From Haliotis rubra (Eukaryota), in NCBI RefSeq assembly GCF_003918875.1, contig NW_025766980.1, positions 1,922,001 through 1,986,000 on the forward strand: DNA of 64,000 bases, written 5' to 3'. The translations under genes and the position numbers were made by a program. The notes beneath the pieces were generated by a model. It did no database searches, was not told the origin of the DNA, and worked only from the letters and a program-made list of their open reading frames with translations. Below, piece by piece: positions 3,771 to 46,700 of this stretch. How positions within the stretch are numbered: position 1 is the first letter of the stretch; every line of letters starts with the position of its first letter.

Positions 3771-3977
3771 CACAAGTCATTGTCACTGACCGAGGTTCAC
3801 TACGACACACAGGAAACAATCGAATGTCAAGGTGAAGGTCATCTGTCCATCACTGTCTATAGCCTCTGTGAGAGTCCAGAACTGTCTCCTCATAGAACCA
3901 GTGAGATTATGAATTGTGGCCTAGGGGATCCTCACCCACTCTTCCTGCAGTCTTGTACCTTTGGAGATCCTGTGGCT

Positions 3978-4885
3978 TGGGGTACTGGGGACCTACTTAC
4001 CAACGTATCATCATCGTCAGACAAACAGGGGGTACTGGGGATCTACTCTAATAACGTATTATCATCGTCAGACAAACATTGGGTACTGGGGACCTACTCT
4101 ACCAACGTATCCTCATTATCAGGCAAACAGTGGGTACTGGGGACCTACTCTACCAACGTATCCTCATCAGACAAACAGTGGGTACTGGGGACCTACTCTA
4201 ATGGGTACTTGGGGACCTACTCTAATAACGTATTATCATCGTCAGACAAACATTGGGTACTGGGGACCTACTCTACCAACGTATCCTCATTGTCAGGCAA
4301 ACAGTGGGTACTGGGGACCTACTCTACCAACGTATCCTCATTGTCAGGCAAACAGTGGGTACTGGGGATCTACTCTACCAACGTATCATCATCGTCAGAC
4401 AAACAGTGGGTACTGGGGACCTACTCTACCAACGTATCCTCATTGTCAGGCAAACAGTGGGTACTGGGGACCTACTCTACCAACGTATCCTCATTATCAG
4501 GCAAACAGGGGTACTGGGGACCTACTCTACCAACGTATCCTCATTATCAGGCAAACAGTGGGTACTGGGGACCTACTCTACCAACGTATCCTCATTGTCA
4601 GGCAAACAGTGGGTACTGGGGACCTACTCTACCAACGTATCCTCATTGTCAGGCAAACAGTGGGTACTGGGGACCTACTCTACCAACGTATCCTCATTAT
4701 CAGGCAAACAGTGGGTACTGGGGACCTACTCTACCAACGTATCCTCATTATCAGGCAAACAGTGGGTACTGGGGACCTACTCTACCAACGTATCCTCATT
4801 ATCAGGCAAACAAACAGTGGGTACTGGGGACCTACTCTACCCAAGATTTGTCATCGTCAGACAAACATTGGCCTACTTGGGACCA
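3978..4885. repeat. 51-bp minisatellite (~17 copies)
   Basis: unit gggtactggggacctactctaccaacgtatcctcattatcaggcaaacagt; gives 17-aa repeats in the ORF track. Confidence 0.95.
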
Positions 4886-5499
4886 CTCTGCCCATGAATG
4901 CTCATCGTCAGCACTAGACAAACCTACTCTGCCCAACATAAAACAAAAATGAAGCAAAATCGACCTAATCTGTCCTGGTCTCTTATTGAGTTTATCAGCT
5001 TGAACTTGACATTTAAGGATTCTTTGAAAGTTGAAAAAAGAACCCCTCAGTTGTACCGTTGGTGGCGCCACCATTTGTTTTCGATATTCTTAAATACAGT
5101 GTAGGTATTTGGAGGTACATTGTTGGTGATTGATAATGTGCTTAACATACATTTATGATTAATTGCATATACTGTACTTCCCTTTACAATGCTACCCTTT
5201 GTACGTTTGCAAACATGGCATTTTGATCTAGCTGGCATTATCACCAGTGGTATTATAACCCGGATGTACTGTAGATAAGCCGCCATTGTGCTAACGCGTC
5301 GACCCGAAGCCTCCATGGTCACATTCACGTATACTGCTGGTAAGACTGGGGGATGCTCGTAGCTTACAATCAACAACATCCTCATAGGGTCAGTTTGAAG
5401 GACAGGCATGGTGAACTGGGGACATATTCTACACAGGATTTCCCCTCAAGCACCAGCCTTTGAAAGATTTGCTTCGCGTTCTTGCGGGGTAGGTTAAAG

Positions 5500-12969: not shown

Positions 12970-13773
12970 ATGTCTGACACGGATGATGAGGCAGCATTCG
13001 CTAGTGCTGATGAAGGGGATCAGGCTGAGAAGGGGGGTAAAGCAGAGACGAAGGGTGGCGATGCCGCAGCAGCTTCTGTCCCTCCAGAACCACCAAAGAA
13101 AGATTCCACGAGGAATCAAAAGAAAAAGGGAAAAAAGGGTGGAAAGAAAAATGCCAACAATGACTCCCAAAAGGATCCTGGAAGACAAGAGTCAGGCTCA
13201 AAGAAATCCTCTAATGTGAAGGCTGAGCAGAAGAGTGATAAAGCACAGACTGGTATTACAGGAACCGAGAAGAGTGATAAAGCACAAACTGGTAAAACAG
13301 GAACCGAGAAAAGTGGTAAAGCACAAACTGGTAAAACAGGAACCGAGAAGAGTGATAAAGCACAAACTGGTAAAACAGGCACTGAGAACAGTGGTAAACC
13401 ACAAACTGGTAATACAGACACTGAGAACAGTAGTAAGGCTCAGTCTGGGAAAACGGAAACAGGAAAAGAGAAATCAAATGTTGAAGAACTGGAGCGTGTG
13501 AAACCTGAAACAAAGGATCTTGAATCTAAGTCCAGTGGAGGTGATAACGGAGATGGAAGGGGAAGTTCAAACCCAGCTGCAGCTGAAGGGGAGACAACTG
13601 TTGCTAAATCTGTCGAGGAGTCTGTTCCTCAGGAAGGCAGGACTAGCGGTACACCTGAGAAAACACCTGCCCCACCACCTCAGGTCGCATCCCCTAACCC
13701 TCAGAGCATCCCCCGTGCTCAGGCAAATGCAGGGAATAAAGAGGACGTAGCCGAGGTGCAAGAAGAGAAGCAG
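12970..13773 (+). CDS. FAM114A2: FAM114A2-like coding exon 1 (disordered, charged N-terminus with a 13-aa repeat)
   Basis: acceptor ttcag at 12950, gccATG at 12970, donor CAG|GTTTGT at 13774. Confidence 0.8.
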
Positions 13774-16700
13774 GTTTGTGTGACTGTTTTCAGTTGTCTT
13801 TCTCACTGACCCAAGAAAAACATATTGAGTCATTAATTTCCTGGGTCACCAAACTGCCTATTTTTATGAAATTAGATGAGTTGTTTTAACATGTATTTAT
13901 TTCTCATTGATTTGCCAAAGTATCAAAGCATCATGGTGATCACTGTACCGTGAAAAGTAACATACATTTTGTAATGATTATTAGGAAGTTTTGACAAAGC
14001 AGACATAAATTGAAAAGCGCTTTCTGAAAAATAGGTCAAGTTCACACTTGTTTTTATCTAATTTTGGCCCCTGACTTAATAGTATCAAGTTGCCAGCTTT
14101 GTTTTTCTGAGTAACCAAGTGTCGAATGCTTGAAAAAGCAAAATGTTCCTAATTTTGAGATGTATGATCTACCGGTATACACCAGCGCCTTCAAATCAAT
14201 CTGAAACTGAGATGTAGGCAAATATACATGTGGTGAATACATAATATAGTGGTGAATCATGTAACATGTTTAAATAAGTATCACAATTTATGAGACATGA
14301 GATTGTTGCTATGGTTACAGGAGTCTGGAAGCTGGGGCTGGGGAGGTTGGGGATCATCATTGCTGACAGCAGCATCATCATCAGTGTCCACCTTCACAAG
14401 TCAAGTTGGTGAGTTGCTGTTGCGATAGTGACATGATACTGTGATGTCATTGTGGTGTGATGCAGTGTCATAGTGATGTCATAGTAGTGTGATGCAGTGA
14501 CATAGTGATATGATAGTGGTGTGATGCAGTGTCAGAGTGATGTCATAGTAGTGTGATGCAGTGACATAGTGATGTCATAGTAGTGTGATGCAGTGACATA
14601 GTGATGTCATAATAGTGTGATGCAGTGTCATAGTGATGTGATGGTGGTGTGATGAAGTGACAGTGATGTGATAGTGGTGTGATGCAGTGATATAGTGATG
14701 TCATAGTAGTGTGATGCAGTGACATAGTGATGTCATAGTAGTGTGATGCAGTGACAGTGATGTCATAGTAGTGTGATGCAGTGTCATAGTGATGTCATAG
14801 TAGTGTGATGCAGTGACATTGTGATGTCATAGTGTGATGCAGTGTCATAGTGATGTGATAGTGGTGTGATGCAGTGACATAGTGATGTGATAGTGGTGTG
14901 ATGCAGTGACATAGTGATGTCATAATAGTGTGATGCAGTGACATAGTGATGTCATAGTAGTGTGATGCAGTGTCATAGTGATGTCATAGTAGTAGTGTCA
15001 TTGTGACATAGTGATGTCATAGTAGTGTGTCACCCTCCCAGTGTCATAGTGATGTCATAATAGTGTGATGCAGTGTCATAGTGATGTCATAGTAGTGTGA
15101 TGCAGTGTCATAGTAGTGTGATGCAGTGACATAGTGATGTGTGTGATGCAGTGTCATAGTGATGTGATAGTGGTGTGATGCAGTGTCATAGTGATGTGAT
15201 AGTAGTGTGATGCAGTGACATAGTGATGTGATAGTGGTGTGATGCAGTGACATAGTGATGTCATAGTAGTTTGATGCAGTGACATAGTGATGTCATAGTG
15301 GCATGATAGTACCGTCTAATCTTACCTTCATGTAAAATACCTAAATTTCATTGGTCAATGACGCTTTCACAAGTTTCCATCAATAGGCAGACGTCATTTT
15401 GTTTACATGTCATATAGTCAACAATATTCAATATAAAATAAAATGATATTTTGAACATTTAACATGGCGGTAAGATAAATACGTCATCCCTCGCCTACCT
15501 GCTCAGGTAACACTGCTACAAAGAGACGTACATCAGACCATATTACCCTAGAGAGAAGCATACAACTTATAATAGTGGTGTGATACAGTGTCATAGTGAT
15601 GTCATAGTGCCGTGATACAGTGTTATAGTGATGACAGTGCTGTGATACAGTGTTATAGTGAAGTCATAGTGCTGTGATACAGTGTTACAGTGAAGTCATA
15701 GTGCTGTGATACAGTGTTATAGTGATGTCATAGTGCTGTGATACAGTCATAGTGCTGTGATACAGTGTCATAGTGCTGTGATACAGTGTCATAGTGCTGT
15801 GATGCAGTGTCATAGTGCTGTGATGCAGTGTCATAGTGCTGTGATGCAGTGTCATAGTGCTGTGATGCAGTGTTATAGTGATGTCATAGTGCTGCGATAC
15901 AGTGTCATAGTGATGTGGATAGTGTCATAGTGATGCAGTGTTGTGCTGTGATGTCATAGTGCTGTGATGCAGTGTCATAGTGCTGTGATGCAGTGTCATA
16001 GTGCTGTGATGCAGTGTCATAGTGCTGTGATGCAGTGTCATAGTGCTGTGATGCAGTGTCATAGTGGTGTGATGCAGTGTCATAGTGGTGCGATACAGTG
16101 TCATAGTGGTGGGATACAGTGTCATAGTGGTGGGATACAGTGTCATAGTGGTGCGATGCAGTGTCATAGTGGTGCGATACATTGTCATAGTGGTGCGATA
16201 CAGTGTCATAGTGGTGCGATACAGTGTCATAGTGGTGCGATACAGTGTCATAGTGGTGCGATGCAGTGTCATAGTGGTGCGATGCAGTGTCATAGTGGTG
16301 TGATACATTGTCATAGTGATGTGATAGTGGTGTGATACAGTGTCATAGTGATGTATATTAATGGTGGGGATCGTGCATGAGGAGGACAAAAACATACAGT
16401 CTCACCGTTAAGGTCTAGAGTGTTATACTCCACACAGGATACACATTTTAAACATTAAAAAGCATTTGCCATGATGTCTTTTTGTTTCTATGTCAGGAGA
16501 AGACACCTAGTTCTCCGTTCTTGTTTCAACAAAGAGTTTTTAACAAACACGAAACTACTCGGATGGCCATGGTAATAATCTGTTTATGTTGCTATAGATA
16601 CTGTGCAGTACCCAGTACCCAATGCTTGTAAGTGTTGCAAATGGCTTGGAGGGGTGCTGATCGCTTGGATCGTTGTTTATGCTATCGAACAGCAGTTTGC

Positions 16701-19700: not shown

Positions 19701-22700
19701 ACACCATCCGGCAGCTGAAACCACAGCTCATTGACATCAAGAACATCTTCGAGCTGGATGACACTGACTACGGTATGGATCTGAACCAGCAATTCACTGG
19801 CCATTCTAAACATGAGTTCTTTGAGAGGCATTTTAGAAATTGTGAAGATGAAGGAAAACTAAATTCTAAGATTTTGACTATCCATAGAACTTAGTTTTCC
19901 TTCATTCTAAACATACATTTAAACAAGTGTAGCTAACACATTTATGGTCCATAATATGTCGTTCTGCAAAATTATAGGAAATTATATATAATATCAGCAA
20001 TAACTTGGTTATGTCTGAGAAATTACAACTCTCGTTATTTTTGTATTAGAGAATGTACAGAAGTTAAGTATGCTTTCAAAGGACATAAGGAGGTTCAGTG
20101 ACATTAGTTATTATTTGTATTACAATGTCATGGCATTCCATAGTAATGTGTTGAAGTCTCACAGATGAGAGAATCATCTAGATATTTTCTGTAGAAAATT
20201 AGTACAGTATTTGACAGTGTTGATAACTTGATACTTCCAACTTCTACCTGCTCTCCACCAAGGAAGACCAAGTAACTTTTGTGGCCTGACAGATCGGTCC
20301 TCTTCCCCCATTCAGAGTAGCCTTTGCTGACACCATCACTATGTTATCTAATGGAGAAATTATTAGATTCTGTTTCTGATTAAGCTATCATGTTTCAACT
20401 GCCCTTGACTTTAACAATATCTCATAAGAATTAAATCGTATACTACACTAAGTTGTCTGTCTGCAATACAATCTGATAATCAGCCAATCGTATACTACAC
20501 TAAGTTGTCTGTCTGCAATACAATCTGATAATCAGCCAATCGTATACTACACTAAGTTGTCTGTCTGCAATACAATCTGATAATCAGCCAGTCGTATACT
20601 ACACTAAGTTGTCTGTCTGCAATACAATCTGATAATCAGCCAATCGTATACTACACTAAGTTGTCTGTCTGCAATACAATCTGATAATCAGCCAATCTTA
20701 TACTGCACTAAGTTGTCTGTCTGCAATACAATCTGATAATCAGCCAATCGTATACTACACTAAGTTGTCTGTCTGCAATACAATCTGATAATCAGCCAAT
20801 TGTATACTGCACTAAGTTGTCTGTCTGCAATACAATCTGATAATCAGCCAATCAGATACTACACTAAGTTGTCTGTCTGCAATACAATCTGATAATCAGC
20901 CAATCGTATACTGCACTAAGTTGTCTGTCTGCAATACAATCTGATAATCAGCCAATCGTACCACACTAAGTTGTCTGTCTGCAATACAATCTGATAATCA
21001 GCCAATCGTATACTGCACTAAGTTGTCTGTTTGCAATACAATCGTATACTACACTAAGTTGTCTGTCTGCAATACAATCTGATAATCAGCCAGAGAAAAT
21101 CAATTGAACTTCCCAATCTACAAGAAGGGTGCTTGGATTCTTTCAGTACTTTGATCTGACCATTCTAAAGTGATATCTCCTCATTCCTTTACTGGTACAA
21201 TGTGTGAAGCCCATTTCTGGTGTCCCCCGCCGTGATATTGCTGTGATATTGCTAAAAGCAGCGTAAAACCATACTCACTCACTCATTCCTTTACCACCTC
21301 AATTCAGAATTTGATCCCTAAAACATCCCAAACAGTGGAGGACATTTTGTAAGTCACTATAGGATTGCATTTTATGTGTTGACAAGCGGCAGATGGACGA
21401 CCAATCACATATTTATGTTGACAGAGGAACGTCAGGAACATGAGTTCTTCAAGCTGATCACCGACCACCTGTCTGAACTACACCTGGGCACAACACCAGA
21501 TAAACTCAATAAGGTGCACAATTTTATGTTGCATTTGGCTGAAATTCAGGTTTAATGATTTAAGCATATCGATATATTCTTAAAGGTCACATGCAACGTA
21601 AAACACAACTTTGCAGATTCTGATACCTTTTGGTATGGACTTACCGAAACAAATCGTCAAAAATGCAAATTCAACTTATAAAGTTGAAAAATAACGCGAT
21701 GAAAAAAACCGTGCAAAATCGGAGTTCGATTCACTAATTTTCCCCCGACTTTTCGGGAGAAAACTGGTTTCAACAGCTGGGCTGCGCCCATAGCACGTCG
21801 CGCAGTGAAATAGGTTCACGCAGCTTGGGCCGGGTTGTCCGGTGAATACCGGTGAAGGCTTTGGTGTGAGCTATTTTTCTAATGTTTTGTTGATATCTCA
21901 CAGGCGAAGCTTTTATATGTTATGACAGTAAATTAACTGTTTATATAATTTCATTTGTCTATTTCACCACACGTTCTTCTTACCAAGTCACTTTCTCAGT
22001 TCGATACTTAAAAGCAATGCCATTATTTAGCGTTGACAGAATTTCTAACTGTGATATAGATATGTCGTTGTCACAGACAAAACTCAATGTCTTGTTTTAT
22101 TGACACCTGTGTGTCTGCCTGCCTGTCTGCTAATGACAATAGTCAATACACAGCTGCTATCACTGACAACATTCAATTTGAACTTAACACCAATCAGGCT
22201 ATACACCATAAACAAAATGCATTGATTTATGGCCTGAGTTCGGTCTCTGTCACATTATGTAATTACACAGACAGGCAGGTGTGATACTTGAACACATGAC
22301 ATGTTATGATGTCTTTTGATTGCAAAATGTTATACACAAAAAATGAGCATGTATTTACAAAACCCAACATCTCTTTATATACAAACACAATGAACCGTGA
22401 GGGAATCTGCTAATGAACCAGCCATTACACTTGAGTGCACACCCACCCGCTCTGACTGGGTTCGGTATCCCGGCTGCTTCGTTTCTTGGGAAGTAAACCC
22501 AAGTACACAATATTGCACTTTTGATTTGCGATTGTACGCTTATAATTTTGTTTATATGTTTTTTCATAACCAGCAATGTATATTATATGTCATGAATAAG
22601 TGATAATTGTGTTTTAATTATGTTTGATTTTTTGGTTGCATGTGACCTTTAAGGATCCATACAAGAGAATTATCTAGATCTACTGTGAGGCTGATATTTA

Positions 22701-25700
22701 TCCTCCCAATCTGCTGAAAAGCAATCCCAGATTGGGAAGCAGCATGCCCCAATTCATGTACTTATGGATCAAGTTACTAATGTGATTACTTTGTAGAAGT
22801 GGCTGGTGTTTCACTGTTAACTTGACCTGTAGATAAAGAGGATGTAGAGATTTGATTTAATGCAATGATAAAATATCAGTGAATTTTAGAAAAGAATAAC
22901 TTAAAATAATCCCAGTTGTGAACAAAATAACAGTTGATTGCCAACTTACCTTACCAAAGGGATTCAGTTTGGGATCCAAGATAAAACCCTGTGCATACAT
23001 AACAAGCTTCCTGGGATGTGTTTTGAACCTACTTGTCCCTGTGTGCAGGTCCAGGAGAAAATCCGAAAGTGGATCATCGACTTTTACGCTGATCCCCCAG
23101 AAGGAGAAGAGAAGAAGATAACAGAACCAAAAGTAAGACCAGTTACCATGGTTACCATTCACACAAATCATATAATCTCCCAGATAATATTAAGTGTGTC
23201 TTACAAAGTAGAACCTGCTTACCTGTGGCGAATCATGCTAATGAGATCATAACTGATCATTAGGAGTTTTGACAGATTGCCTGAATTCCCAGGCATTTCT
23301 GCAGTTTCCACAACCAGGGTCCTGTTTCACACACCCAAACCTCTGGTCACGTAATCTTATCACTACTATATTAGCATTGTGTGTTTCAGGAGATATTCCA
23401 CACTGCTATAGAGGCTCTGGCAGAGCTGACAGCCAAGTCTGTTGAGCAGTTCCACAAGGCTGGGGAGCTGATTCTGCTGCAACAAGACACCGACACTCCC
23501 TACCAGAACCGCTCCAAGAGTCTTGCCAGGTACGAGTTGTTGGTTACAGTCCCAGTATTCTAACTACTAGTATATGATGTCAGTCTATGTGTCGCGGGTT
23601 CTGGTCTTGAGATGTCCCAAGGACAATAATTGATGAGACGGGGAATGTCGCTTAAGATATGCACCAGTTTATTGCCTGTGAAATATGAACATTACAACAT
23701 GAGAAAGATGATGTATGCGTCCGACATGGTCGGATGGTGACATGAAAGTCGTATATATCTTATATGAATACATCGGCAATAAACAATACAATTATAGATA
23801 TAAGATTGGTATATAATAGTTATGCTATAATTGTATAATTGATAAAATATATATGACGTCACGCATAAGCGTTTCGTCCGGGATATTTACAATTGATGTG
23901 ACGCCACGCATTAGCTTATCAGCCAAAATTATATACAACTGATGATTTAGTATACTGTAGATATAAAATCATAATTATTGATCATTCACACACTGTCTTA
24001 CATGCAATGCTAGTGCTTTAAGTTAGTAAGTGATCCACGCGAGAGAAAGTTTACAATACGCGGTCGCGATTAATTACTAACTTAAGATATATGTTATTAC
24101 TATGTTGATGACAATAATATATATACTAGCAATGATATAGATGTAGAAAGAATATATGTAGAGAGGGTGCTTACCTGTGAAATATGAACATTACAACATG
24201 AGAAAGATGTTGTATGCGTCCGACATGGTCGGATGGTGACATGAAAGTGTCACACGTCACAGGCATGAAACGCATCGAGATTTGGCGGTTAGCCAAATAC
24301 GGGTGGCACGCATAACTCTCTACATATAGCCAGTGGAGAAGCAGCCCTCTGTTGAAATAAAAGGAAATAGAAGGTTGTCGGCTACATATTCCCCCTTTGG
24401 AAAATGGTGTCCTCAACATTTATAGAACAAAGGACATGGTCAACAATGAGAGAGGAAAATGATCAAACAGGGATATTGATGAAAATATCCCCAACTGAAT
24501 TAGTTGCTTTTAATGACATCGCATGCTTTTGAAAGGAACACCAAATAATGGAAAACAAAACACCTGGTACTCCTATGAAAGTCAGAAGGTTTCAATGATC
24601 AGGAAATCATTGAAAGAAACTGACAAACCAACTGAACAAACCAACTAAACTATGTACAAGAACTTCAAACAAAAACTTCTTCCTCTTCCGCTTCGCTACT
24701 TAACGACGGCCCCGGAAGTTTGTCACCCACTGATCACTCTGCATCCAGGCTGGACAGGTTCTGAGTCGGGTAGGCCTCCCCGACTCCAGAGCCGCCCATC
24801 TGGGCAGGTGATGCAGGCTGAACGCTGATGACAGGAGGGGTTGCATCTTCTGGTTCCACAGCAGTACTTGAGGGCGGCGCTGAAGTCGACCTTTCCGAAC
24901 GGAAATACTGGCAGGGGATAACTGTATCAGCTGCTGGCTCTGTGGTCTCTGGCTGGCTTCCAGAAGATCCTGAGGGTGGACGAGAAGCATTAGCAGCACT
25001 TGGAATCAAATTCGTGGCTCTGGTTTGACTCCTCAGTCTTGGCAGCAGTATGATCTCCTCTTCATCCTGACTGTCTTCTTCGGATCTGTCTGAAGCTTGA
25101 AACTCCTTCACCAAGTGATACCCGATTCTTTGCTTCTTCTAGATTGGCGTCGTTCTGTCCTGGGCGGTCTTGTTGGAGGGAAACAGATTCCAGTGGCAGG
25201 AGCATGTTAGCGTGGAGAGTCTTCATTGGCCCCTGGCCACTCTCTTGCTTCAAAGTGTAGACGGAATGTCCTCGCTGGGTTGTTTCACAATGACATAGAC
25301 GTTTTTCCCCACTTGTTGGCAAGCTTGTTCCTTCCTGTAAGTCCGACAAGTCGCACCAGAACACGATCATTTGGTTGTAGAAAGGACTCTCTCACTTTCT
25401 TGTCGTAATGTTGTTTGTAGCGTTGTCCTGCCTTCCTAGATTCCTTGGAGGCTATGTTGTACGCAAACTGTAGCCGCTTCTTGAGGTTGTTAGCGTATTG
25501 AGTACAGGTAGCTTGTCCTTGTCCAAGGTCGAATCCAAGAAAGGCGTCCACTGGGAGTCGAGGGTGTCGTCCAAACATGAGGTAGAAGGGAGGTACTCTC
25601 GTGACTTGTGGCATTGTAGGAATGAACGAGAGCAGGTACATAAGTTTTCCAGTCACTCTTCTTCTCTTCATCCAGGGTACCCATCATGTTCATCAGTCTG

Positions 25701-28700: not shown

Positions 28701-31700
28701 AGATGAGTAAGGCATGACGCGTGGTATCCCTCAGATACAGTTGAAACCATAGATCCTGGATCAATCAAGGCTGGACAGTTGATTCTTCTCTATGTCGATA
28801 ACTGCCTCGTTGGCTTTGCCGACCATCCGGCCGATGTAAATCTGATAAGGGGCTAGTAGTTCCCTCAGCCTCAGCATGCCCCGCAGCAGTAGGCTGGATT
28901 AGTTTAAAGAATCCTTATCTTCCTTCGAGTATACTTGACCTCGACCACGTCCTCTTCTTCCTCTACCTCGAGTCCGTTGTGGCTGAAGGGAGTACTGTTG
29001 TTGCTGGGTCTCGTGGGTTTCCAATGCCTTCAGTCTGTCCAGAATCTGCTGGAGAAGATGACTGTCTGTAGACGGTTTCTTGGATGCCAATTCCAACTTC
29101 TCAAGCCTTTTGTAATGTCGGACAGCTGTCGAAAGCACTTTGATCCTGAGGAGAGGAAGTAGATCCTTCTAGTGGTTGTGAGAATCCTAATGTTTGAGGT
29201 TGGTGCTGACTACGACTGGGTCTTGGCTTGACAGGCTGGCTGTTGTTGATTTCCTGTTCAATCAGTCGAACGGTCTGTAGTAGTGTGTGAAATCCATCGA
29301 CGAAGTAAAAAGCATGACGTGTTGCATCCTTCAATGCCAGATTCCTCAACCCTGTCCAGAACCGATTCCGTAGCATGGCCTGTCTTGCTTGTGTATCCAA
29401 GTAAGACCCTCTATCGTACACACTCTGTAGGATGTCCTCAAGCCTGATTCCCCATGAAGCCACTGTCTCCTAATCCTTCTGAGTTGCCTGATGAAACTGT
29501 TGAAGAAGCTGTTCGGCCGTGATAATGGTTCCGTGAGGGCCCCCTCCAAACGCTGTAGAATATCTGTGACTGTAGCATATTCTCCTAGAGTAACTAACAC
29601 ACGAGCGGCATCTCCTCTGAGTGACTTCCCACAGCTTGCATAAGAGTTGAAGATGTAATGCTGTCATCCCTCATCAAGCAACGAATCTCAAACTTCCAGT
29701 TCTCGAAAGTTGTCTCCCCTTTCTGCACTGGCTCTTCACCTGAGAAGGCTGAAATCCTGAGTAGCGGCTGAAGTGTAGGCCATGGTGCAGGTGGATAGGT
29801 TGAAGGAGGGAAAGGAAACGATCCTGGTGTTGGGACATAAGATGGAAAACTAGGTGTGGAAAAGTTTCTTGAGTGTGGTGTAGAAGAAGTGGGTACGGAG
29901 CGAATGGTGTATTTCCCAGTCCCCTGAAGATAGGTCAACATCCTGGCTTCGTCCTCTTCGGAAATACCCTCGGACTTGATCTCCCAATCTTCACCACCTT
30001 GAGCCATGTTGTCCTCGATCCGTGATATAACGAGTGAAAGGTAAACACCAATGACCAGCAAAGAAAAGTATGAAGCGTTTACTGGTTTATACAACCACGA
30101 GTAGACCCAGCAGGGTAACTACGGTAGTAACATATAAACTATGCTGATACTATTACGCTAGGTAAAGTATCTGCTGTGCACAAACAGTAAACAAGGAATA
30201 GCAAACATGGAGGGAAGCATGAATGTATCTGTGATAGAATATGCTCTGATATTGCAGAGTGTATGATACTGTGTGCGGTATACCAAGGTGTGAAGCAAGA
30301 GCTAAACGCAAGCGCAACTCTAAGAGTTACTACGGTAATAAATGCTAAGGGTGTGCAGAGAGTATAAAACTTGCACAAGTGTGCAAATGCAAACTTGAGC
30401 ACCCAACAGAAACAAACTTACCCAAGGCAAAAAGCAAACAACACCATGAGAAAGAAACACAACGCCAGTTGATACGAAGCAAAGGGGAGGCAATCGCCTA
30501 TAGCATAGGGCTTAGGAAGCACTATAAGATAGGAAAATGGAAAAGACCCTAAGTATATTATCCTAACAGTTTATAAGATTAACAAACGCGACGAGATCGG
30601 GTAAGGACGCGAAATGTTAACGCGAGTGCATGGCTGTATAATTAGTGCAAATGAAAATAACTGACGATACACACAAGCAAACATAAAATGTAAACAATCA
30701 ACTATTGCACTAAGTCAAGTCAACACACTAATATAATACTTAAGCATGCATTGTCGCTTTTACAGACAATATAGGTAGCTTGATTATTTATAAATATAAC
30801 TAATATATCTAACAAATTGAATTAATCTAACCAATTACACTAATCTAACTAATTCAACTAGTCTAACTAATTAAACTAATCTAACTAATTACACCAATCT
30901 AACTAATTAAACTAATCTAACTAATATGATGAAGTCAAGTTATGTAAATATTGCACAGTTATGTGAAATTCAATGCATTCATGCAATATTATGGCATGTA
31001 GACAAATGTCAATAGTATGAATACAACTGATCCATGAAATCAATGCTATGAATATAGCAAATTCATGGATATAAATGGAATGTCACATATAAAATGCACT
31101 TTAGCAGCTGAATGTCTCCCAATGTCTCACTGATGATCACTGATATCACACGTTTATCACAGTCTTGTTTAGAGTGTCACATGTATATATGGATATCACA
31201 GATAAGGTGTAGAATATATAAGATGTAAAGTGTCTTATCACAGTCAAATAGAAGTTGATATATACACACACGAAATCACTGAGCGCAAATCTCACGTATC
31301 TGACGATCCTTGAAGATGACGTCCAGGTGAGCTGTACCGTGAGGGTGTCGTGGATGATATCGTGGGTTGTTCTTGGTTCTGCTTGGCACTGGTTGACGGC
31401 GATGTTATGATGAACCCCGTCTCTGTTCGGGCGCCAATTGTCGCAGGTTCTGGTCTTGAGATGTCCCAAGGACAATAATTGATGAGACGGGGAACGTCGC
31501 TTAAGATATGCACCAGTTTATTGCCTGTGAAATATGAACATTACAACATGAGAAAGATGTTGTATGCGTCCGACATGGTCGGATGGTGACATGAAAGTCG
31601 TATATATCTTATATGAATACATCGGCAATAAACAATACAATTATAGATATAAGATTGGTATATAATAGTTATGCTATAATTGTATAATTGATAAAATATA

Positions 31701-34700
31701 TATGACGTCACGCATAAGCGTTTCGTCCGGGATATTTACAATTGATGTGACGTCACGCATTAGCGATCAGTTAAAATTATATACAACTGATGATTTAGTA
31801 TACTGTAGATATAAAATCATAATTATTGATCATTCACACACTGTCTTACATGCAATGCTAGTGCTTTAAGCTAGTAAGTGATCCTTTAGAAAGTTTACAA
31901 ATAAGTGATCCAATTACTAACTTAAGATATATGTTATTACTATGTTGATGACAATAATATATATACTAGCAATGATATAGATGTAGAAAGAATATATGTA
32001 GAGAGGGTGCTTACCTGTGAAATATGAACATTACAACATGAGAAAGATGTTGTATGCGTCCGACATGGTCGGATGGTGACATGAAAGTGTCACACGTCAC
32101 AGGCATGAAACGCACGAGATTTGGCGGGTTAGCCAAATACGGGTGGCACGTACAACTCTCTACATATAGCCAGTGGAGAAGCAGCCCTCTGTTGAAATAA
32201 AAGGGAAATAGAAGGCTGTCGGCGACATATTCCCCCCCTTTGGAAAATGGTGTCCTCAACATTTATAGAACAAAGGACATGGTCAACAATGAGAGAGGAA
32301 AATGACCAAACAGGGATATTGATGAAAATATCCCCAACTGAATTAGTTAAGCTTTTAATGACACGTATGCTTTTGAAAGGAACACCAAATAACGGAAAAC
32401 AAAACACCTGGTACTCCTATGAAAGCTCGTAAGGTTTCAATGATCAGGAAATCATTGAAAGAAACTGACAAACCAACTGAACAAACCAACTAAACTATGT
32501 ACAAGAACTTCAAACAAAAAAAACTTCTTCCTCTTCCGGCGCTTCTGTTACGAACGACGGCCCCGAAGTTTGTCACCCACTGATCACTCTGCATCCAGGC
32601 TGGACGGGTTCTGAGTCGGGTAGGCCTCCCCGACTCCAGAGCGTCCATCTGGGCAGGTGATGCAGGTTGAACGCTGATGACAGGAGGGGTTGCATCTTCT
32701 GGTTCCACAGCAGTACTTGAGGGCGGCGTTGAAGTCGACCTTTCCGGAACGGAAATACTGGCAGGGGGGATAACTGTATCAGCTGCTGGCTCTGTGGTCT
32801 CTGGCTGGCTTCCAGAAGATCCTGAGGGTGGACGAGAAGCATTAGCAGCACTTGGAATCAAATTCGTGGCTCTGGTTTGACTCCTCAGTCTGGGCAGCAG
32901 TATGATCTCCTCTTCATCCTGACTGTCTTCTTCGGATCTGTCTGAAGCTTGAAACTCCTTCACTCGAAGTGATACCGATTTCTTGCTTCTTCTAGATTGG
33001 CGTCGTTCTGTCCTGGGCGTGTCTTGTTGGAGGGAAACAGATTCCAGTGGCAGGAGCATGTTGCGGTGGAGAGTCTTCATTGGCCCCTGGCCACTCTCTT
33101 GCTTCAAAGTGTAGACGGGAATGTCCTCGTTGGGTTGTTTCACAATGACATAGACGTTTTTCCCCCACTTGTTGGCAAGCTTGTTCCTTCCTGTAAGTCC
33201 GACAAGTCGCACCAGAACACGATCATTTGGTTGTAGAAAGGACTCTCTCACTTTCTTGTCGTAATGTTGTTTGTAGCGTTGTCCTGCCTTCCTAGATTCC
33301 TTGGAGGCTATGTTGTACGCAAACTGTAGCCGCTTCTTGAGGTTGTTAGCGTATTGAGTACAGGTAGCTTGTCCTTGTCCAAGGTCGAATCCAAGAAAGG
33401 CGTCCACTGGGAGTCGAGGGTGTCGTCCAAACATGAGGTAGAAGGGAGGTACTCTCGTGACTTGTGGCATTGTAGGAATGAACGAGAGCAGGTACATAAG
33501 TTTTCCAGTCACTCTTCTTCTCTTCATCCAGGGTACCCATCATGTTCATCAGTCTGGTTGAAACGTTCCGTCATACCATTACCTTGAGGGTGATATGGCG
33601 TCGTTCTTGTCTTCTTTATCCCAGTAAGTTGGCAGAGTTCTCTGATGATGTTGCCCTCGAAGTTCCTCTCTTGGTCACTGTGGAGTTTAGCCGGGAATCC
33701 ATAATGTACTAGAAAATTGTCAAACAGTACTCTCGCTGTGGTCTTGGCTGATTGGTTACGAGTTGGGATGGCAATAGCATCGCGAGTAAAATGATCCGTG
33801 ATCACAAGGATATTCTCGTAGCCTCCTTTGGATTCTTCAAGCTTGAGATAGTCCAAACAGAAAAGTTCCATGGGCTGTGAAGTGTGGATGCTTATAAGTG
33901 ATGCGGCTTTCACAGTGGTTTTGCACTTGCGTCGGACACAATTACCACAGTTCTTAATGTACTTCTCAACATCCTCAGACATTCCAGTCCAGAAAAACCT
34001 TGATCTCACAAGATGGAGAGTTCTGTCGCGTCCCTGGTGTCCTGAGTTGTCATGGAGAGACTGAAGTATTTCCTGTATCTTGTTCCTTGGTAGAACTAGC
34101 TGATGTTCAATACCTTCGATGTTGTTAATTCGTCTGAACAAGATCCCATCCTTGAGAAACAACTTGTCCCTGTCCTGAAGTAATCTTCTCACTGTAGGAT
34201 CCTCAAGTGACCGCTGACGTGCTGTGAGCTTAACTCCTTCCTTGATGAGATGGATTACACGTCCAAGATGTTGATCACTGAGTTGTTCCTTCTTCCAGGA
34301 CAGTGATGTAGGGGTCAATGGAATTATGTCATCTGGGCAAACAACTTTTTCATCACAAGATAAGCTTTCTGCAGCAATGCAGGAGGTGCAATGAACTTGG
34401 CAGATGGCCTTGATAGATTGGGGTTCGATATGAGACTCCTTGCTGTCCGAGTAGTCTGGCCTTCTTGACAATCCATCGGCATCCATGTTGGTGTTGCCTG
34501 CACGATAGGTAATGATGAAGTCGTATGCTGAGAGAGCAGCGAGCCACCTGTGTCCAGTGGCATCAAGCTTGGCTGATGTCAAGACGTAGGTAAGAGGGTT
34601 GTTATCTGTCTTGACCTCGAACTTGTTTCCATACAGGTACTCATGAAACTTATCCGTAACGGCCCATTTGAGTGCTAAAAACTCAAGCTTGTGTGCAGGA

Positions 34701-37700: not shown

Positions 37701-40700
37701 AGTGGAAAAGTTTCTTGAGTGTGGTGTAGAAGAAGTGGGTGCGGGCCGAATGGTGTATTTCCCAGTCCCTGAAGATAGGTCAACATCCTGGCCGTCCTCT
37801 TCGGAAATACCCTCGGACTTGATCTCCCAATCTTCACCACCTTGAGCCATGTTGTCCTCGATCCGTTGATATAACGAGTGAAAGGTAAACACCAATGACC
37901 AGCAAAGAAAAGTATGAAGCGTTTACTGGTTTATACAACCACGAAAGTAGACCCAGCAGGGTAACTTCACGGTAGTAACATATAAACTATGCTGATACTA
38001 TTACGCTAGGTAAAGTATCTGCTGTGCAACAAACAGTAAACAAGGAATAGCAAACATGGAGGGAAGCATGAATGTATCTGTGATAGAATATGCTCTGATA
38101 TTGCAGAGTGTATGATACTGTGCGTGGTATACCAAGGTGTGAAGCAAGAGCTAAGCAAAGCGCAACTCTAAGAGTTACTACGGTAATAAATGCTAAGGGT
38201 GTGCAGAGAGTATAAAACTTGCACAAGTGTGCAAATGCAAACTTGAGCACCCAACAGAAACAAACTTACCCAAGGCAAAAAGCAAACAACACCATGAGAA
38301 AGAAACACAACGCCAGTTGATCTGAAGGAAACAAGGGGAGGCAATCGCCTATAGCATAGGGCGAGGGAAGCACTATAAGATAGGGGAAAATGGAAAAGAC
38401 CCTAAGTATATTATCCTAACAGTTTATAAGATTAACAAGCGCTGACGCAGACGCGGAGGCGGACGCGGAAATGTTAACGCGAGTGCATGGCTGTATAATT
38501 AGTGCAAATGAAAATAACTGACGCATACACACAAGCAAACATAAAATGTAAACAATCAACTATTGCACTAAGTCAACACACTAATATAATACTTAAGTAT
38601 GCATTGTCGTTTTTACAGACAATATAGGTAGCTTGATTATTTATAAATATAACTAATATATCTAACAAATTGAATTAATCTAACCAATTACACTAATCTA
38701 ACTAATTCAACTAGTCTAACTAATTAAACTAATCTAACTAATTACACCAATCTAACTAATTAAACTAATCTAACTAATATGATGAAGTCAAGTTATGTAA
38801 ATATTGCACAGTTATGTGAAATTCAATGCATTCATGCAATATTATGGCATGTAGACAAATGTCAATAGTATGAATGCAACTGATCCATGAAATCAATGCT
38901 ATGAATATAGCAAATTCATGGATATAAATGGAATGTCACATATAAAATGCACTTTAGCAGCTGAATGTCTCCCAATGTCTCACTGATGATCACTGATATC
39001 ACACGTTTATCACAGTCTTGTTTAGAGTGTCACATGTATATATGGATATCACAGATAAGGTGTAGAATATATAAGATGTAAAGTGTCTTATCACAGTCAA
39101 ATAGAAGTTGATATATACACACACGAAATCACTGAGCGCAAATCTCACGTATCTGACGATCCTTGAAGATGACGTCCAGGTGAGCTGTACCGTGAGGGTG
39201 TCGTGATGATATCGTGGGGTTGTTCTTGGTTCGTTGGCACTGGTTGACGGCGATGTTATGATGAACCCCGTCCCTGTTCGGGCGCCAATTGTCGCAGGTT
39301 CTGGTCTTGAGATGTCCCAAGGACAATAATTGATGAGACGGGGAACGTCGCTTAAGATATGCACCAGTTTATTGCCTGTGAAATATGAACATTACAACAT
39401 GAGAAAGATGTTGTATGCGTCCGACATGGTCGGATGGTGACATGAAAGTCGTATATATCTTATATGAATACATCGGCAATAAACAATACAATTATAGATA
39501 TAAGATTGGTATATAATAGTTATGCTATAATTGTATATTTTTCCTTATCCTGACTCATGCTCTTTTGCTTGTCCCCTTCCTCTTGCGAACATAGTGGAAC
39601 ACTTGTATCTCCTTAATTGAAGCTCCCTTCAATGTAAAATCACTAATTGGTACTCACCCACGAGTTACCTCCCCTGCCGTAAGCGCGGGAACAGGTGTCG
39701 CCACCCTCTGGCCTCATGCTTCACTCTCTCCTTCTTCGCCCAGTGAGCAGGATGTGAGAGCGCCTGTGTCTCCTTACACACTATATCCTTTGGTTTTCTT
39801 AGTTAGTTACCTTTTATAGTTTACTATAAAGGTATAGCTAGTATCCTTCAGTTATTTGCATTAATAATTAATCATTATTTCTACTGTTTATTCCATTGAG
39901 TTAAGTGATTGTTCAGCTAGTTTTACATTGATGAAAAACTGTACTATTTGTAGATTACGTTTTCCGCTCATGCGGATCATGTGGTATGCCCTAGTTGTAC
40001 TCGCCTTGTCGCGTTTGACTCACGTTGCAGTTACTGCATAAATTTAACCAATTCTGCCTTTGATAAATACCATCTTTGCGTCTTGAGGCGTGTTGCAGAT
40101 AGGTCACGCAAACTAGGTGTAGACATGGCCGATCGTCCGGATTGCCCATCCAGTCAACTGCTGTCGAGTGATCCCCTCCCGTCTGGTGTTCTGCTTGAGA
40201 CCCCATCGGTAGAGGGGCGTGGGATGCAGTCCGTCACCTCTAAGAAGCGACCGGCCTCTCCAGACATCCAGTCATCGCAGACAAAGTCCAGAGGGCCTCA
40301 GCGTCTTCTCAGCGCCAGACTTAGTGCCCCAGGGCAGCGTCTTCCTCCAAAGGGAAATCACGAAGTCATCGAGAACTTTCTCAGGCGAGATCGTTCCAGC
40401 AGCAGAATTGGGCCTCTCGATGACCAGCCTATCATCATACCCGACATATGCATACAAGAAGCGACCAGTGACAGCGACAGTGGCGTCAGCAGAGATCAAC
40501 AAGCAGCCTGATGCCTCTACACTGATGTCAGGCGAGATCGCTGAGGGCCCCACAGCTAACACAGCAGAAAGGGCACCATCTACTACGTCGCCAGATCATC
40601 CCAAGCGATCTTATGAAACAGATCATGATTATGATGGAAGGCCACTATAGACTGGAGAAGCAGCCATCCCAGGGTCGAGGAGCCGAAGGCTCCAACGTGA

Positions 40701-43700
40701 CAGCACCCCAGGGCACCATCTGTCAACGTAGCAGCCACGACAATGCAGCCTTCGAAGGAAGTCACAGACCACCTCGACGAAGGACCCAGATGTACAGCCT
40801 TCGCGAAGGCCTTACGTAAAGCGGGGAAGAATCATCACCTCCTTCCCGGTCATACTCAGATATGGAATCTGATCACCCAGACCACGCATGAAGCCTTGGC
40901 GAAGGTCATATCATCATTCCCAGGACCGGACATCTGAAGCTTCCGGCGAAGTTGTGAAGGACACCTGAACCCAGATCGTCTTCATCTAAAAAGATCAGCA
41001 AGGGACTACACAAGAGCTTCGGCGAAGCTATCAGTCCCCTCATAGGTCGCCAAGAAGGTCAACCTATCGATATAGATCACCAAGGCGATCACCTCGCCCG
41101 ATCACCACGTCGATCACCTCACAGGTCTGCACATAAGCCTACAACTAGATCTCCACAAGCGTCAAGCGATATAGAGATAGAGCCACACAGCCCTACATCA
41201 GAAGAGCAACAACCTCTTATCTATGATGATGGAATGGAAGATGATGGAGGAATTATTTTCTCAGATGCAGAGATAAGATATTGGATGGTCAATAATCTAG
41301 ATCTCTCATCACCTTCCAAGAGTGGCAATAAAGAAGCAGACTTATCTGATGAAAGAAGATGGCGCAGATGCTATTACACTACCCCAATCGACCCGATTAG
41401 GCGGTACCTCAGAACCTAGATACAGCATTTAACAAAGCCACAAAGGTTCAGGCATACATCTGCCAAATTTCAAGCGCCAAGAAGTTCTCCACGCATAATA
41501 TGGAACCCTTCTTCAAAAGCCAAGACATCGATGAGAACTATAAGCTGATCTCCGATGCCAAGAACAAGTACTACAAGATTGATGATGGAAATTGGTTCAG
41601 ATAGAAACCATGGCGAGGCGTATGTTCTTCGGTCTAAATAGATCTAGAACAATAAATGAGACACTTATCTCCAGATTTGAACCACGACCTCTGAAGATGA
41701 CAGAATGATTTACTTTCGGCCCTACTGATGCAAAAAGAAGGACCAGCAGTTTTTAACAGATCATCTGGCGTCTGTCTCAGCAGCACTGACCTTAGCTTCG
41801 TCGTCAAGGCCTCCTAGCTTCCTGCAACTGGGGTGAGAACTTTACAGCTCCACTATATACAGCCCGTGGTCTTCCCCATCCATATTTGTGGAGGAATAGA
41901 CACAGTCTCCAAAGAAGTCACCAAGGATTCTAGAGAGTCCTGATGATTAAATCGATGGACCACGCTAGCCAGTGTCATTCGACAGACTTCACAAAGATAC
42001 TCAGGGAGATCTAAATTCACGGGCCTACAAAGAGCTAGAGACAGGAAGATTGCCAGTTCCAGGGGAAGAGATTCTTTTAAAATTAAGCCCATATGGCAAC
42101 TATAGAGGAGGGTCAGGGCGAGGCAGGACACCCAGAGGTTCCCGCAACTATAAACGCTGAAAGACAGGTTCGAACGACTGGAGTCTTCCACCCCAGCCGT
42201 TCCAGTACAACCGTCACAAGTGGGTGGGCGTCTTCAACTACACTGGGAAAACTGGGGAATACTTCAAGACACCTATGTCTCCAACATTCTTCAGCGGTTT
42301 AGAGTATCCCACTACAGGCCAAGCCTCCACTAACAGTCAACCCTCACAAGTTCGAGGTAGAGGCACAACAACTACTAAAGTTAAGAGAGGCGGTTACATT
42401 ACTCCTAACCAAGCAGGCCATAGAAGTAATAGAGCAAGGAAACATCGAACCAGGTTTCTACTCCCCAGTTTTCCTAGTACCCAAGAAGAACTCCAAGGAG
42501 AAATACAGACTCATTTACAACATGAGCTTCTTCAACAAGACTTACTTAAAACACACCACCCAGGTTCACTATGATACATCTACCGCTAGCTTCTGGCAGA
42601 TGATTAGCCCCATGGACTACATGGGCAGTATAGATCTACAAGATGCTTATCTGCACATCCCAATACATCCTTCAATCAGGAAATACCTTCGGTTTTACGG
42701 CTAAGGCGGGTTACATTACCAGTGGAAAGTACTCCCATTGAATAGCATCAGCCCCATGGTTATTCACGAGGATAACGAAACCGATTGTTACCTATCTACA
42801 TCGTCAAGGGCTACGCGAGAGTGCGTTCTTCCTCGACGACGGGATACAAGTAGATCAAGATCCACAGCATCTCAAACTACAGTTAAACTACATCATAAAG
42901 CTACTAACACAGCTGGGATGGTTAGTAAACTTACACAAAGTCGGACCTAGTACCATCGCCAAGATCTGCAATTCCTAGGAATCCGATTTATCACCAATCT
43001 CAACCGTATAGTCGTACCAGAAGACCGTTGGCTCAAGATCCAACAGATCATTCCACCAGCTCTACTGTCACCGCTACCACTTCTTCACAATGGCAGAGCT
43101 TACTAGGTCTTCTAACATCAGCCCAAGACTTGACAGTCATAGGCAGATTACAGTTACGTCCGTTACAGGTCTTCGTCAATACACATCTCGGCGACCTACA
43201 ACCATTCAGTCTACCGATACATCTCAGACCTCATCTATTATGGTGGACAAAGAAATCCGAATGTCTCGAGAGGGATTTGTTTAGCAGAGCAGGAATTCAA
43301 GACCCATCTATATGTAGATCAGCGATGGCTCCAAGGTTGGGGAGCTCATCTCTCCAACCGACGACATCAGGGTTATGGACTCAGCTAGAAAGCAAACTCC
43401 ACATAAGCGCATTAGAGATGAAAGCTGTAATCAGCGCCATAAGACATTGGAGCAACATTCTACAGAATGCGCACCTGATGATACATACCGACAACTCGAC
43501 AGTGGCGTTTATGTGAACAGACAAGGCTCAACGAGATCGCCGAACCTTTTGAATTTAACCTTTCAACTGTTCGAATTAATCCAAGATCTAAATCTACATG
43601 TCAAAGCATGCCACATTCCCCGAGCCAGGAATATACTAGCAGGCGCACTCTCGGCCACATCTACCGTCACCCGACAGAATGGATGCTCAATACAGAGATA

Positions 43701-46700
43701 TTTGCACAGATAATCAAGCAAATAGGAGCTAGCCGCTAGTAGATCTATTCGCCACAAGGTTCAACAATCAACTACCGACATTAAATTGTCACCAGTGCCA
43801 GACCCACAAGCATGGGCAACAGGCGGCTCTAAGCATTTCATGGGAAGGCCTCAATGCGTCTGCTGTTTCCGCCCCCAGCAATAATACCTCTAGTATTACA
43901 GAAAATCAACCAAACGCAGAGCCTACAACTCACTTTGGTCGCTACCCTATTGGCCGGCCAGAACGTGGTTTCCGCCTTTAATACAAGATATCGGGTCAAC
44001 CCGGCACTAGAACTACCCAAGCGCCAAAACCTGTTAATACATCCTCACACCAAACAGGTGCAGAGAAACCCAGAAGTATTCAAACTTCATTATGGACTGT
44101 ATTAAAATGTGTTTAAATAAGAGAGGATATTCTACCAGGGCTATAAAAGCGCGGTCACGCTATGTTTACGATATTCTTAACGATACTCAGCAGCGTGGCA
44201 ATGCGATGACAAGTGGCAAAGTTTAGAAAATTATGCAACAAACAAGGGTTTTAGCGAGATGCTACGATCCTCAAGTGGCAGACTATTTGTGTTACTTACG
44301 GCAAAACAAACATTTAAAAGGCTCGACATTGTCTCATATCTTGCCGCGCTTAGTTCTGTGATTTCTATGAGAACGGGTGTTAAATTAACAAGAACACCAG
44401 AGTTACTGGCCTTACTACGTGCTTTCGATTGGAGGACCAAAGCGGAAATTCCACGCTGCAGCTTGGGATCTGAATGTAGTTTTACGACACCTCACAAAGT
44501 GAGGATTATGAACCATTGGAATCGAACAGCGTTTGAATTTCTCTCACAGAAAACAGTCTTCCTGTTATCGCTAGCCACGGCAGCCAGAATATCTGAAATT
44601 CATGCTCTAGATTATGAGAGGATACAGTTTGATGAAAATCAAAGACAGCGCACCTGGGATTAAGATGGGATTTCATCGCCAAAAATCAACTACCAGGTCA
44701 ACCAGACAGGTTATTTCACATCCCTGCGCTATCCTCAATTCTTGGATCTCAAGATACATTGGACTTATCTCTATGCCCAGTATGCACGAGCTCTCATAAT
44801 CTATTTGCGTCGTTTCCAAAACAAAGCGAAGATCGCCAGAAGATTGTTCATCCCGTTATAAGCCTACAAATCAGACAGAAGTCTCGTTACCACCATATCA
44901 ATATGGATAAGAACTGTCATTTCTGCAGCCTATAAGGCAGCAGGACTGGACCCTCCAACAGCATCAAATCCCCATGAAATCAGGGCATTGGCATCCACCC
45001 TCGCCCTTCATGGTAACTGTTCATTGAATACAATTATGGAAGGATGCTTTTGGAAATCTAACATGGTGTTTGCTAATCACTATCTCAGAGATATCACCAC
45101 CGAGGGCGTCTCTGGCATTCATCATTTCGGTCCTTTGGTCCTCGCTCAGCAATTGACAGTCCCTCGTAGATGGCGTTAATATTCACCCCCACGTAGATTA
45201 TTAGATATATGATACATATATTCACTAGCTTATAACTCCATGGAGTTCTAGGGCTATGTACATATTTAGCTTAGGTTATTCAACCTTAAGCTCATACTGA
45301 GTTATATTCAGTGTACAGCTACGTTAGAGTAGCAGTTTATATATATATATTGATATATCAGTATATTAGTAAGGTAATACCCACTTATAGTGTATATATC
45401 TATGGCTTATTATAAGGAAATATCCTAAGTCTCAATGCCTTATGAAGTTCCCGCGAGGGTTATTACAATATCACTTACTTAAATCACTAATTAATCCAAA
45501 GTATTCTGTTTACCCACCACCTCTCCGATTGGATTCTACAAAACAAAAGAGCATGAGTCAGGATAAGGAAAAATATGTAATTTTTGAGTAAAATTGATAT
45601 TTTATACTTATCCTGACTCATGAGGTTAACTCCTCCCATCCTCCCCACATAACACTTTGGATTTCCCTGTAAATTCAAGTGTTGGGCTCGCAAAATCAGG
45701 AGAGAGTGAAGCATGAGGCCAGAGGGTGGCGACACCTGTTCCCGCGCTTACGGCAGGGGAGGTAACTCGTGGGTGAGTACCAATTAGTGATTTTACATTG
45801 AAGGGAGCTTCAATTAAGGAGATACAAGTGTTCCACTATGTTCGCAAGAGGAAGGGGACAAGCAAAAGAGCATGAGTCAGGATAAGTATAAAATATCAAT
45901 TTTACTCAAAAAATTACATAATTGATAAAATATATATGACGTCACGCATAAGCGTTTCGTCCGGGATATTTACAATTGATGTGACGTCACGCATTAGCGA
46001 TCAGCCAAAATTATATACAACTGATGATTTAGTATACTGTAGATATAAAATCATAATTATTGATCATTCACACACTGTCTTACATGCAATGCTAGTGCTT
46101 TAAGTTAGTAAGTGATCCACGCGAGAGAAAGTTTACAATAGCGGTCATGCGATTAATTACTAACTTAAGATATATGTTATTACTATGTTGATGACAATAA
46201 TATATATACTAGCAATGATATAGATGTAGAAAGAATATATGTAGAGAGGGTGCTTACCTGTGAAATATGAACATTACAACATGAGAAAGATGTTGTATGC
46301 GTCCGACATGGTCGGATGGTGACATGAAAGTGTCACACGTCACAGGCATGAAACGCACGAGATTTGGCGGGTTAGCCAAATACGGGTGGCACGTACAAAT
46401 CTCTACATATAGCCAGTGGAGAAGCAGCCCTCTGTTGAAATAAAAGGGAAATAGAAGGCTGTCAGCGACATATGGATAATGTAGCCTAGACCAGACAATC
46501 CAGTGACTGACATCACATACAGTTAGGAGGCAATAACATACAGCAACCAAGTCTATGAGATCGACCACCAATCCTGATAGTTGACTCTAAGGACAAGCAT
46601 GGTTTGCTGAAGAACAATTCTAGTCCAGATCTTCAGGGGGTTGCCAAGTAGTAAACTCTGATCTGCCAGAGGTCAGACTTGTGTGTCGACAGAAAGGGTA

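What the first reader, a model, noticed from the sequence alone, without database searches (positions are those of the whole stretch)
39538..45920. Complete DIRS1 element with a readable circle junction and a 3-nt crossover site
The ITRs appear identical over 189 bp. The ICR spells the circular-intermediate junction ...TTACATA|TTTTTCC.... The empty target is known from LTRs 1 and 2 (TTGTATA|ATTGAT). Both share ATA at the crossover, and the filled site reads gtATA-tttttcc...ttacATA-attgat. Pre-insertion site, circle junction and product are all in one window and fit tyrosine-recombinase integration through a trinucleotide (here ATA, not the T-run at the element's left end). Identical ITRs suggest a recent insertion.
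Basis: partly seen in the sequence, partly recalled or inferred. Interest (0 to 1): 0.7.

Follow-up and report, generated by a model that had tools for sequence, protein, structure and literature searches.

The report
DIRS1 retrotransposon with one-sided insertion junctions
This is an ordinary DIRS1 jumping gene, but its many copies show that it joins the host DNA at one fixed point without needing a matching three-base word, which likely means that only one DNA strand is swapped during insertion.

Summary
The anatomy is real: 189-bp identical inverted repeats, an internal copy of the circle junction, and empty sites in two sister LTRs. It is a DIRS1 retrotransposon of a family with over 1,000 copies here, its ORFs shattered in this assembly. 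The ATA crossover is refuted: only 8 of 78 independent copies have ATA at both junctions, 17 have the textbook ATT at both. Instead the join is fixed at TTACAT|ATTTTT, without target duplication. The circle's ATT ends up on the left and the target's own bases on the right in 57 of 60 informative copies, never the reverse; a distant family gives 13 versus 0. Targets resemble AAAA-N6-TTTT, mirroring the circle, and the base before the cut tracks each family's circle base (p=0.007). This likely records a single exchange of the minus (cDNA) strand at the edge of a 6-bp spacer, resolved by replication as in integrons; inferred, not shown. The scan earlier proposed folded single-stranded DIRS insertion on another genome (e1-9036628); my fold test supports it in one family, not the other.

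The parts
39537..45919 (+). DIRS1-like retrotransposon, 6383 bp, ends as fixed by the family (starts ATTTTTCC, ends TTACAT)
39537..39732 (+). left terminus; 39544-39732 is the exact 189-bp ITR core
39907..42157 (+). ORF1 region (gag-like by position; N-terminal Cys-rich motif), in 6 pieces in this assembly
   Evidence: tblastn with the 754-aa frame of L045; weak Prok-RING_1 hit E=0.009; 'gag' is by position, recalled
41969..44113 (+). pol region: RT (FLDD at 42829), RNase H (HTDNS at 43484), methyltransferase-like tail (DLFAT at 43742), in 3 pieces
42192..45179 (+). overlapping ORF3 with tyrosine recombinase: R motif at 44580, HEIR at 44973, NHYL at 45075; broken by frameshifts and stops here
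45541..45622 (+). internal complementary region (ICR); the circle join maps to 45574|45575; folds into a long imperfect hairpin
45698..45919 (+). right terminus: ITR core 45698-45886, then divergent part and right extension 45887-45919
39290..39536 (-). host LTR3, part left of the insertion (0 of 247 differences from LTR2)
45920..46470 (-). host LTR3, part right of the insertion
23831..23843 (.). empty paralogous target in LTR1; join position 23836|23837
31680..31692 (.). empty paralogous target in LTR2; join position 31685|31686

Best explanation
This is a DIRS1 retrotransposon whose copies all join the target at one fixed point, TTACAT|ATTTTT, with no duplication and no need for a matching trinucleotide, and this likely records a single exchange of the minus strand by the element's tyrosine recombinase that is then likely resolved by replication. 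Shown: anatomy, fixed join, one-sided outcome (circle's ATT left, target's bases right), a weak target motif A-rich at -10..-7 and T-rich at +1..+4. Inferred: the motif is a two-arm recombinase site AAAW-N6-WTTT; by the usual 5'-overhang geometry of tyrosine recombinases (established knowledge, recalled) a join at the right edge of the 6-bp spacer is the bottom-strand cut, and the bottom strand is the reverse-transcribed cDNA strand; the second exchange is not completed, so one daughter chromatid gets the element. Open: whether the donor is the folded single-stranded cDNA or a double-stranded circle.
For: Family 1: all 81 copies counted end TTACAT; 92 of 97 left ends start ATT; right flanks start TTT 37, ATT 18, TAT 8, AAT 4, GTT 4, other 10. 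After removing 3 shared-flank copies: 57 of 60 informative copies are circle-ATT left / target right, 0 reverse, 3 neither (57:0 p=1e-17). Set B (57 left ends) was picked without regard to +1..+6 and gives 54 ATTTTT. Among the first 100 rows of a right-end pattern (my hand count) 44 are right ends, none clearly continuing as ATTTTT, 48 exact and 6 variant ICR-type, 2 unclear. Paralogous empty sites keep the register at 10 sites; L038 (G|T) and L134 (C|T) share neither base next to the cut with the circle. Target matrix n=81: A at -9 p=9e-9, T at +3 76 of 81, T (not the circle's A) preferred at +1. Family 2 (RT about 50% identical): 21 copies with both ends give 13 left-ATT/right-other, 0 reverse, 3 ATT/ATT (one after correcting a misparse), 5 neither; A at -9 in 18 of 25; its junction is a perfect AAAT-N6-ATTT. 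Base -1 follows the circle: T 45 / A 25 in family 1 (circle T), A 13 / T 5 in family 2 (circle A), p=0.007. Table 3 of PMC3266345 (section 10 read): of 10 elements whose start and end differ, 7 match the circle at the start, 1 at the end, 2 undecidable (my count). PMC7192593 (passages, section 29): DIRS-1 cDNA is single-stranded, mostly linear; no circle junction could be amplified. PMC3458562 (abstract): single exchange with replicative resolution in integrons.
Against: No biochemistry: the cut strand is read from a weak logo. The T preference at +2..+4 also matches the circle and could be homology sensing after a top-strand cut. Eight further copies had non-canonical right ends and were left out of the 81 (4 point variants, 4 shortened or altered at the last bases; none of the reverse type). 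Five empty-site comparisons are off register or unclear (L049, L066 with an 8-bp duplication, L123, L129, L157) and 3 were self-hits. A|A at the cut is depleted (3 against A|T 22, T|A 23, T|T 20; p=7e-4), which the model does not explain. Set A was chosen by a query that included the T-run. The assembly is indel-rich, so T-run lengths are unreliable. About 100 of over 1,000 copies were examined.
Confidence: 0.55

Rival explanations
1. One reading: reciprocal crossover inside a shared ATA trinucleotide.
For: True to the letter at this one site.
Against: 8 of 78 copies have ATA at both junctions, about chance; L038 and L134 have verified empty sites without it.
Confidence: 0.01
2. Textbook model: double exchange between the circle's ATT and an identical ATT in the genome.
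For: ATT is the second commonest target triplet (18 of 81); PMC3266345 background states this model.
Against: 61 of 78 copies lack ATT at one end; TTT is twice as common; T is preferred over A at +1 in both families.
Confidence: 0.05
3. Top-strand cut at the same point, with TTT at +2..+4 acting as a short homology check and the spacer lying to the right; still one exchange kept, but of the plus strand of a double-stranded circle.
For: Target equals circle at +2, +3, +4 in 78, 94 and 81%.
Against: The first swapped base (+1) would mismatch in two thirds of sites; the circle's C at +7 and +8 is not enriched; the A-rich arm at -10..-7 mirrors +1..+4 around 6 bp; base -1 tracks the circle across families.
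Confidence: 0.2
4. Double-stranded circle, both strands exchanged without homology (as recalled for Tn916-type integrases), heteroduplex spacers then repaired always in favour of the minus strand.
For: Explains mismatched targets with ordinary two-step chemistry; PMC7192593 speculates that full circles become double-stranded and integrate at once.
Against: Unbiased segregation predicts both product types equally; observed 57:0 and 13:0. Needs the circle's top strand removed at one junction and the host's at the other, with no known signal.
Confidence: 0.17

Closest known systems
DIRS1-like retrotransposons (PMC3266345; ATT-type mollusc elements AcaDIRS1/2, LgDIRS1/3 in its Table 3)
   Same: ITRs with conserved and divergent parts, right extension, ICR, RT-RNase H-MT, overlapping tyrosine recombinase, about 6 kb, left end ATT, no target duplication.
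   Different: The target need not carry the junction trinucleotide; the outcome is one-sided; a two-arm target motif with a 6-bp spacer appears. Probably a general DIRS1 trait rather than a peculiarity of this family.
Dictyostelium DIRS-1 (PMC7192593)
   Same: ICR spelling the joined ends; predicted cDNA route.
   Different: [quoted passage not shown] Nothing on intermediates was tested here.
Integron attC x attI recombination (PMC3458562, abstract)
   Same: Works like it if the inference holds: tyrosine recombinase, one strand exchanged, replicative resolution, imperfect hairpin with unpaired bases.
   Different: No integron, no IntI; eukaryotic retroelement; hairpin is the lowest-energy fold in family 1 only. 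Not a member.

Membership tests
DIRS1-like superfamily | Inverted terminal repeats | tested here: met
   189 bp exact
DIRS1-like superfamily | ICR complementary to both ends, right extension | tested here: met
   45541-45622
DIRS1-like superfamily | RT and RNase H | tested here: met
   window pieces RVT_1 E=0.006, RT_RNaseH E=2e-5; copy L045 E=3e-18 and 2e-8
DIRS1-like superfamily | Methyltransferase-like domain after RNase H | tested here: inconclusive
   Dam E=0.094 in L045; 4 of 24 aligned homologues hit Dam, best 2e-5
DIRS1-like superfamily | Tyrosine recombinase instead of DDE integrase | tested here: met
   Phage_integrase E=7e-5, below the curated cut-off, in L055 and L048; R, HxxR and Y motifs in the window and in one frame in 9 of 81 copies
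DIRS1-like superfamily | No target-site duplication | tested here: met
   10 empty sites in register; one 8-bp duplication (L066); 4 unclear
DIRS1-like superfamily | Begins and ends with NTT matching the circular junction | tested here: inconclusive
   begins ATT; this copy's right triplet is AAT; ATT at both ends in 17 of 78. Published members also differ at the end in 10 of 28, so this is not a strict feature
DIRS1-like superfamily | RT groups with named DIRS1 elements in a tree | not tested
   no named reference DIRS proteins came from any call; homologues are unnamed or 'uncharacterized'
PAT / Ngaro / VIPER | Split direct repeats | tested here: not met
   termini are inverted; only short direct matches from the ICR
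attC-type folded single-strand recombination (works like) | Donor site folds into an imperfect hairpin that rebuilds both arms | tested here: inconclusive
   family 1: lowest-energy fold, 20 of 21 distinct cores; shared variants in 7 of 12 unpaired against 2 of 28 paired columns. Family 2: 2.0-2.8 kcal/mol above the best fold, pair probability 0.02-0.06 in 4 of 4 tested
attC-type folded single-strand recombination (works like) | Only one strand exchanged, replicative resolution | not testable with these tools
   inferred from 57:0 and 13:0 polarity

The most novel reading that the evidence does not exclude
DIRS1 retrotransposons integrate the way integron cassettes do: the single-stranded minus cDNA, with its joined ends folded on themselves or paired to the ICR, presents an AAAW-N6-WTTT site, the recombinase exchanges only that strand at the right edge of the spacer, and host replication completes the insertion, so no double-stranded circle and no trinucleotide identity is needed.
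Probability: 0.3. Interest if true: 0.75.

Novelty: new member of a known kind. Interest (0 to 1): 0.5.

Why it matters
The DIRS integration step rests on a 1985 model, and PMC7192593 states that the recombinase's specificity has not been tested. This family turns it into exact predictions: scissile bond, cut strand, spacer length and target motif. It also corrects the 'identical trinucleotide' rule, and would explain why double-stranded circles were not found in Dictyostelium. The element itself is ordinary. [quoted passage not shown]

Tried and rejected
ATA crossover: rejected. Obligatory ATT homology: rejected. Register shift with the left A coming from the target: rejected by empty sites L038, L041, L134, L135. 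Hidden reverse products: left flanks match the circle's -5..-1 fully in 1 and at 4 of 5 positions in 7 of 97, about what base frequencies give (0.5 and 5, my arithmetic); the 8 odd right ends are not of this type. Rows dropped before counting family 1: 5 left-end rows (a nested host end, an rTR-like end, second ends of tandem or partial copies), 16 left ends without a canonical right end, 4 loci without a left end, then 3 shared-flank copies. Family 2: 46 loci screened, 32 unique left ends, 30 unique right ends, 21 with both; 2 left ends nested at DIRS ends removed for the -1 test. ITR identity as a clock: too short to date. Expression: no RNA holder listed; no reads were laid. PDB sequence search with one recombinase piece: 0 hits. 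No RT or YR tree was built. A conserved attC-like fold across families: not supported in family 2. Supplements of the papers were not opened.

Full report
Observation. The element sits in the third LTR of a tandem LTR retrotransposon with RNase H followed by integrase on the minus strand. LTR2 equals LTR3 over the 247 bp before the site, so it is a good stand-in for the pre-insertion site, though a paralogue.

What it is. A DIRS1-like retrotransposon. The window's frames are short pieces, but copy L045 has frames of 754, 708 and 915 aa with RT, RNase H, a faint Dam hit and phage-integrase hits. These map onto the window in 6, 3 and 5 pieces, and the recombinase motifs lie at 44580, 44973 and 45075. 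The window differs from L045 by 88 indels, 64 of them single bases and 45 of homopolymer type; the two host internal regions differ by 88 indels too. Assembly noise is the likely cause, so coding integrity cannot be judged. The family is large: 2211 matches to the junction's left half, 1075 of them exact ICR-type. L045 and L035 differ by 0.27%, so the family was active recently. The closest named homologues are abalone proteins, so the host is likely an abalone.

The crossover. I fetched 99 loci of the family (39, picked by identity to the left end including its T-run; 60, picked without +1..+6). With the window, 97 left ends and 81 copies with both ends were scored. All 81 end in TTACAT; 92 of 97 start ATT. 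The base after TTACAT is T 48, A 27, G 5, C 1, so the last A of 'ATA' is not part of the right end. ATA at both junctions: 8 of 81, 6.0 expected. ATT at both: 18 of 81. After removing 3 shared-flank copies, 57 of 60 informative copies carry the circle's ATT left and target bases right, none the reverse, 3 neither. Eight more copies had odd right ends; none is of the reverse type. A right-end search independent of left ends agrees (first 100 rows, hand count: 44 right ends, 10 starting ATT, none clearly ATTTTT, 2 unclear).

Register. Searching each copy's two flanks separately in all fetched DNA (84 rows, 19 with hits) gave paralogous empty sites in register at 10 distinct sites, 7 of them letter-exact over the 9 central bases. 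L038 (G|T) and L134 (C|T) pin the join to one bond with no shared base on either side. Five were off register or unclear, including an 8-bp duplication at L066; 3 were self-hits. The ends of the window copy are therefore 39537 and 45919, and its target is TTGTAT|AATTGAT.

Target motif. Reconstructed targets are A-rich at -10..-7 (peak -9, p=9e-9) and T-rich at +1..+4 (peak +3, 76 of 81). This mirrors the circle, AAAA-TTACAT-ATTT: two arms around 6 bp, with the join at the spacer's right edge. A distant family (RT about 50% identical) has AAAT-TTACAA-ATTT, the same polarity (13 versus 0 among 21 copies with both ends; 3 ATT/ATT, 5 neither) and the same A peak at -9. Base -1 follows each family's circle (T against A, p=0.007 after removing 2 nested ends), while +1 prefers T in both although both circles have A.

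Mechanism. Tyrosine recombinases cut the top strand at the left edge and the bottom strand at the right edge of the spacer (established knowledge, recalled). The join kept here would then be the bottom-strand exchange, and the bottom strand is the cDNA strand. A double exchange over a mismatched spacer would give two product types equally; only one is seen. A single exchange resolved by replication, shown for integron attC sites (PMC3458562, abstract), is the simplest account. PMC7192593 (passages and section 29) found DIRS-1 cDNA single-stranded and mostly linear, able to integrate when transformed, and failed to amplify a circle junction. These steps are inferred; a top-strand cut with a TTT homology check, or biased repair, remain possible.

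Fold. Prompted by earlier scan note e1-9036628 I folded the junction. In family 1 it forms a long imperfect hairpin that rebuilds both arms with a 6-versus-5-base spacer (20 of 21 distinct cores). Shared variants fall in 7 of 12 unpaired and 2 of 28 paired columns among 76 of 110 cores of standard length (columns are not independent and the structure comes from one core). Between families one arm pair changes on both sides (T-A to A-T; one event, read). Against: in family 2 this fold lies 2.0-2.8 kcal/mol above the best fold, and two palindromic sites in tandem would fold this way even if used as duplex DNA. That note's 'three-base match' is not required here.

Known or new. The textbook model has recombination between the 3-bp junction and an identical genomic triplet (PMC3266345, passages and section 10). 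Its own Table 3 already hints at polarity: 7 of the 10 elements with unequal ends match the circle at the start, 1 at the end, 2 undecidable. PMC9210276 (passages) reports TTT at both ends in Xenopus. PMC13465315 (passages) added nothing on this. Searches showed no paper stating a one-sided rule or a 6-bp spacer, but two key older texts were not held.

Verdict. An ordinary DIRS1 copy; observation confirmed, ATA claim refuted. The value lies in the family-wide junction rule, which makes the untested DIRS integration step directly testable. Interest 0.5.

Noticed in passing
window 23590-46470, minus strand: Tandem LTR retrotransposon with three LTRs (23590-24386, 31439-32227, 39290-46470), RNase H then integrase, a primer-binding site resembling tRNA-Lys (recalled), and TATG on both outer sides as a possible 4-bp duplication.
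   Followed up: partly
window 32490-33539, minus strand: A 349-aa open frame downstream of the host element's integrase with no Pfam hit.
   Followed up: no
L066: One DIRS copy with an 8-bp target duplication in a tandem array, the only clear one among the checked sites.
   Followed up: partly
L111:2725-9868: Two DIRS copies head to tail joined by a perfect circle junction; dimer circle or insertion into an existing end.
   Followed up: partly
L034, L129, L198: DIRS copies inserted into the AT-rich termini of other DIRS elements, which resemble the target motif.
   Followed up: no
L136:7019-7169: About 150-bp remnant: left end, right end and a second left start in a row, without coding sequence.
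   Followed up: no
family 1 targets: A|A at the join is rare (3) against A|T 22, T|A 23, T|T 20; p=7e-4; unexplained.
   Followed up: partly
window 3883-4914, 13190-16398, 20302-21029: Several minisatellite arrays (periods 51, 39, 32, 21, 52) and a dispersed SINE-like repeat.
   Followed up: no
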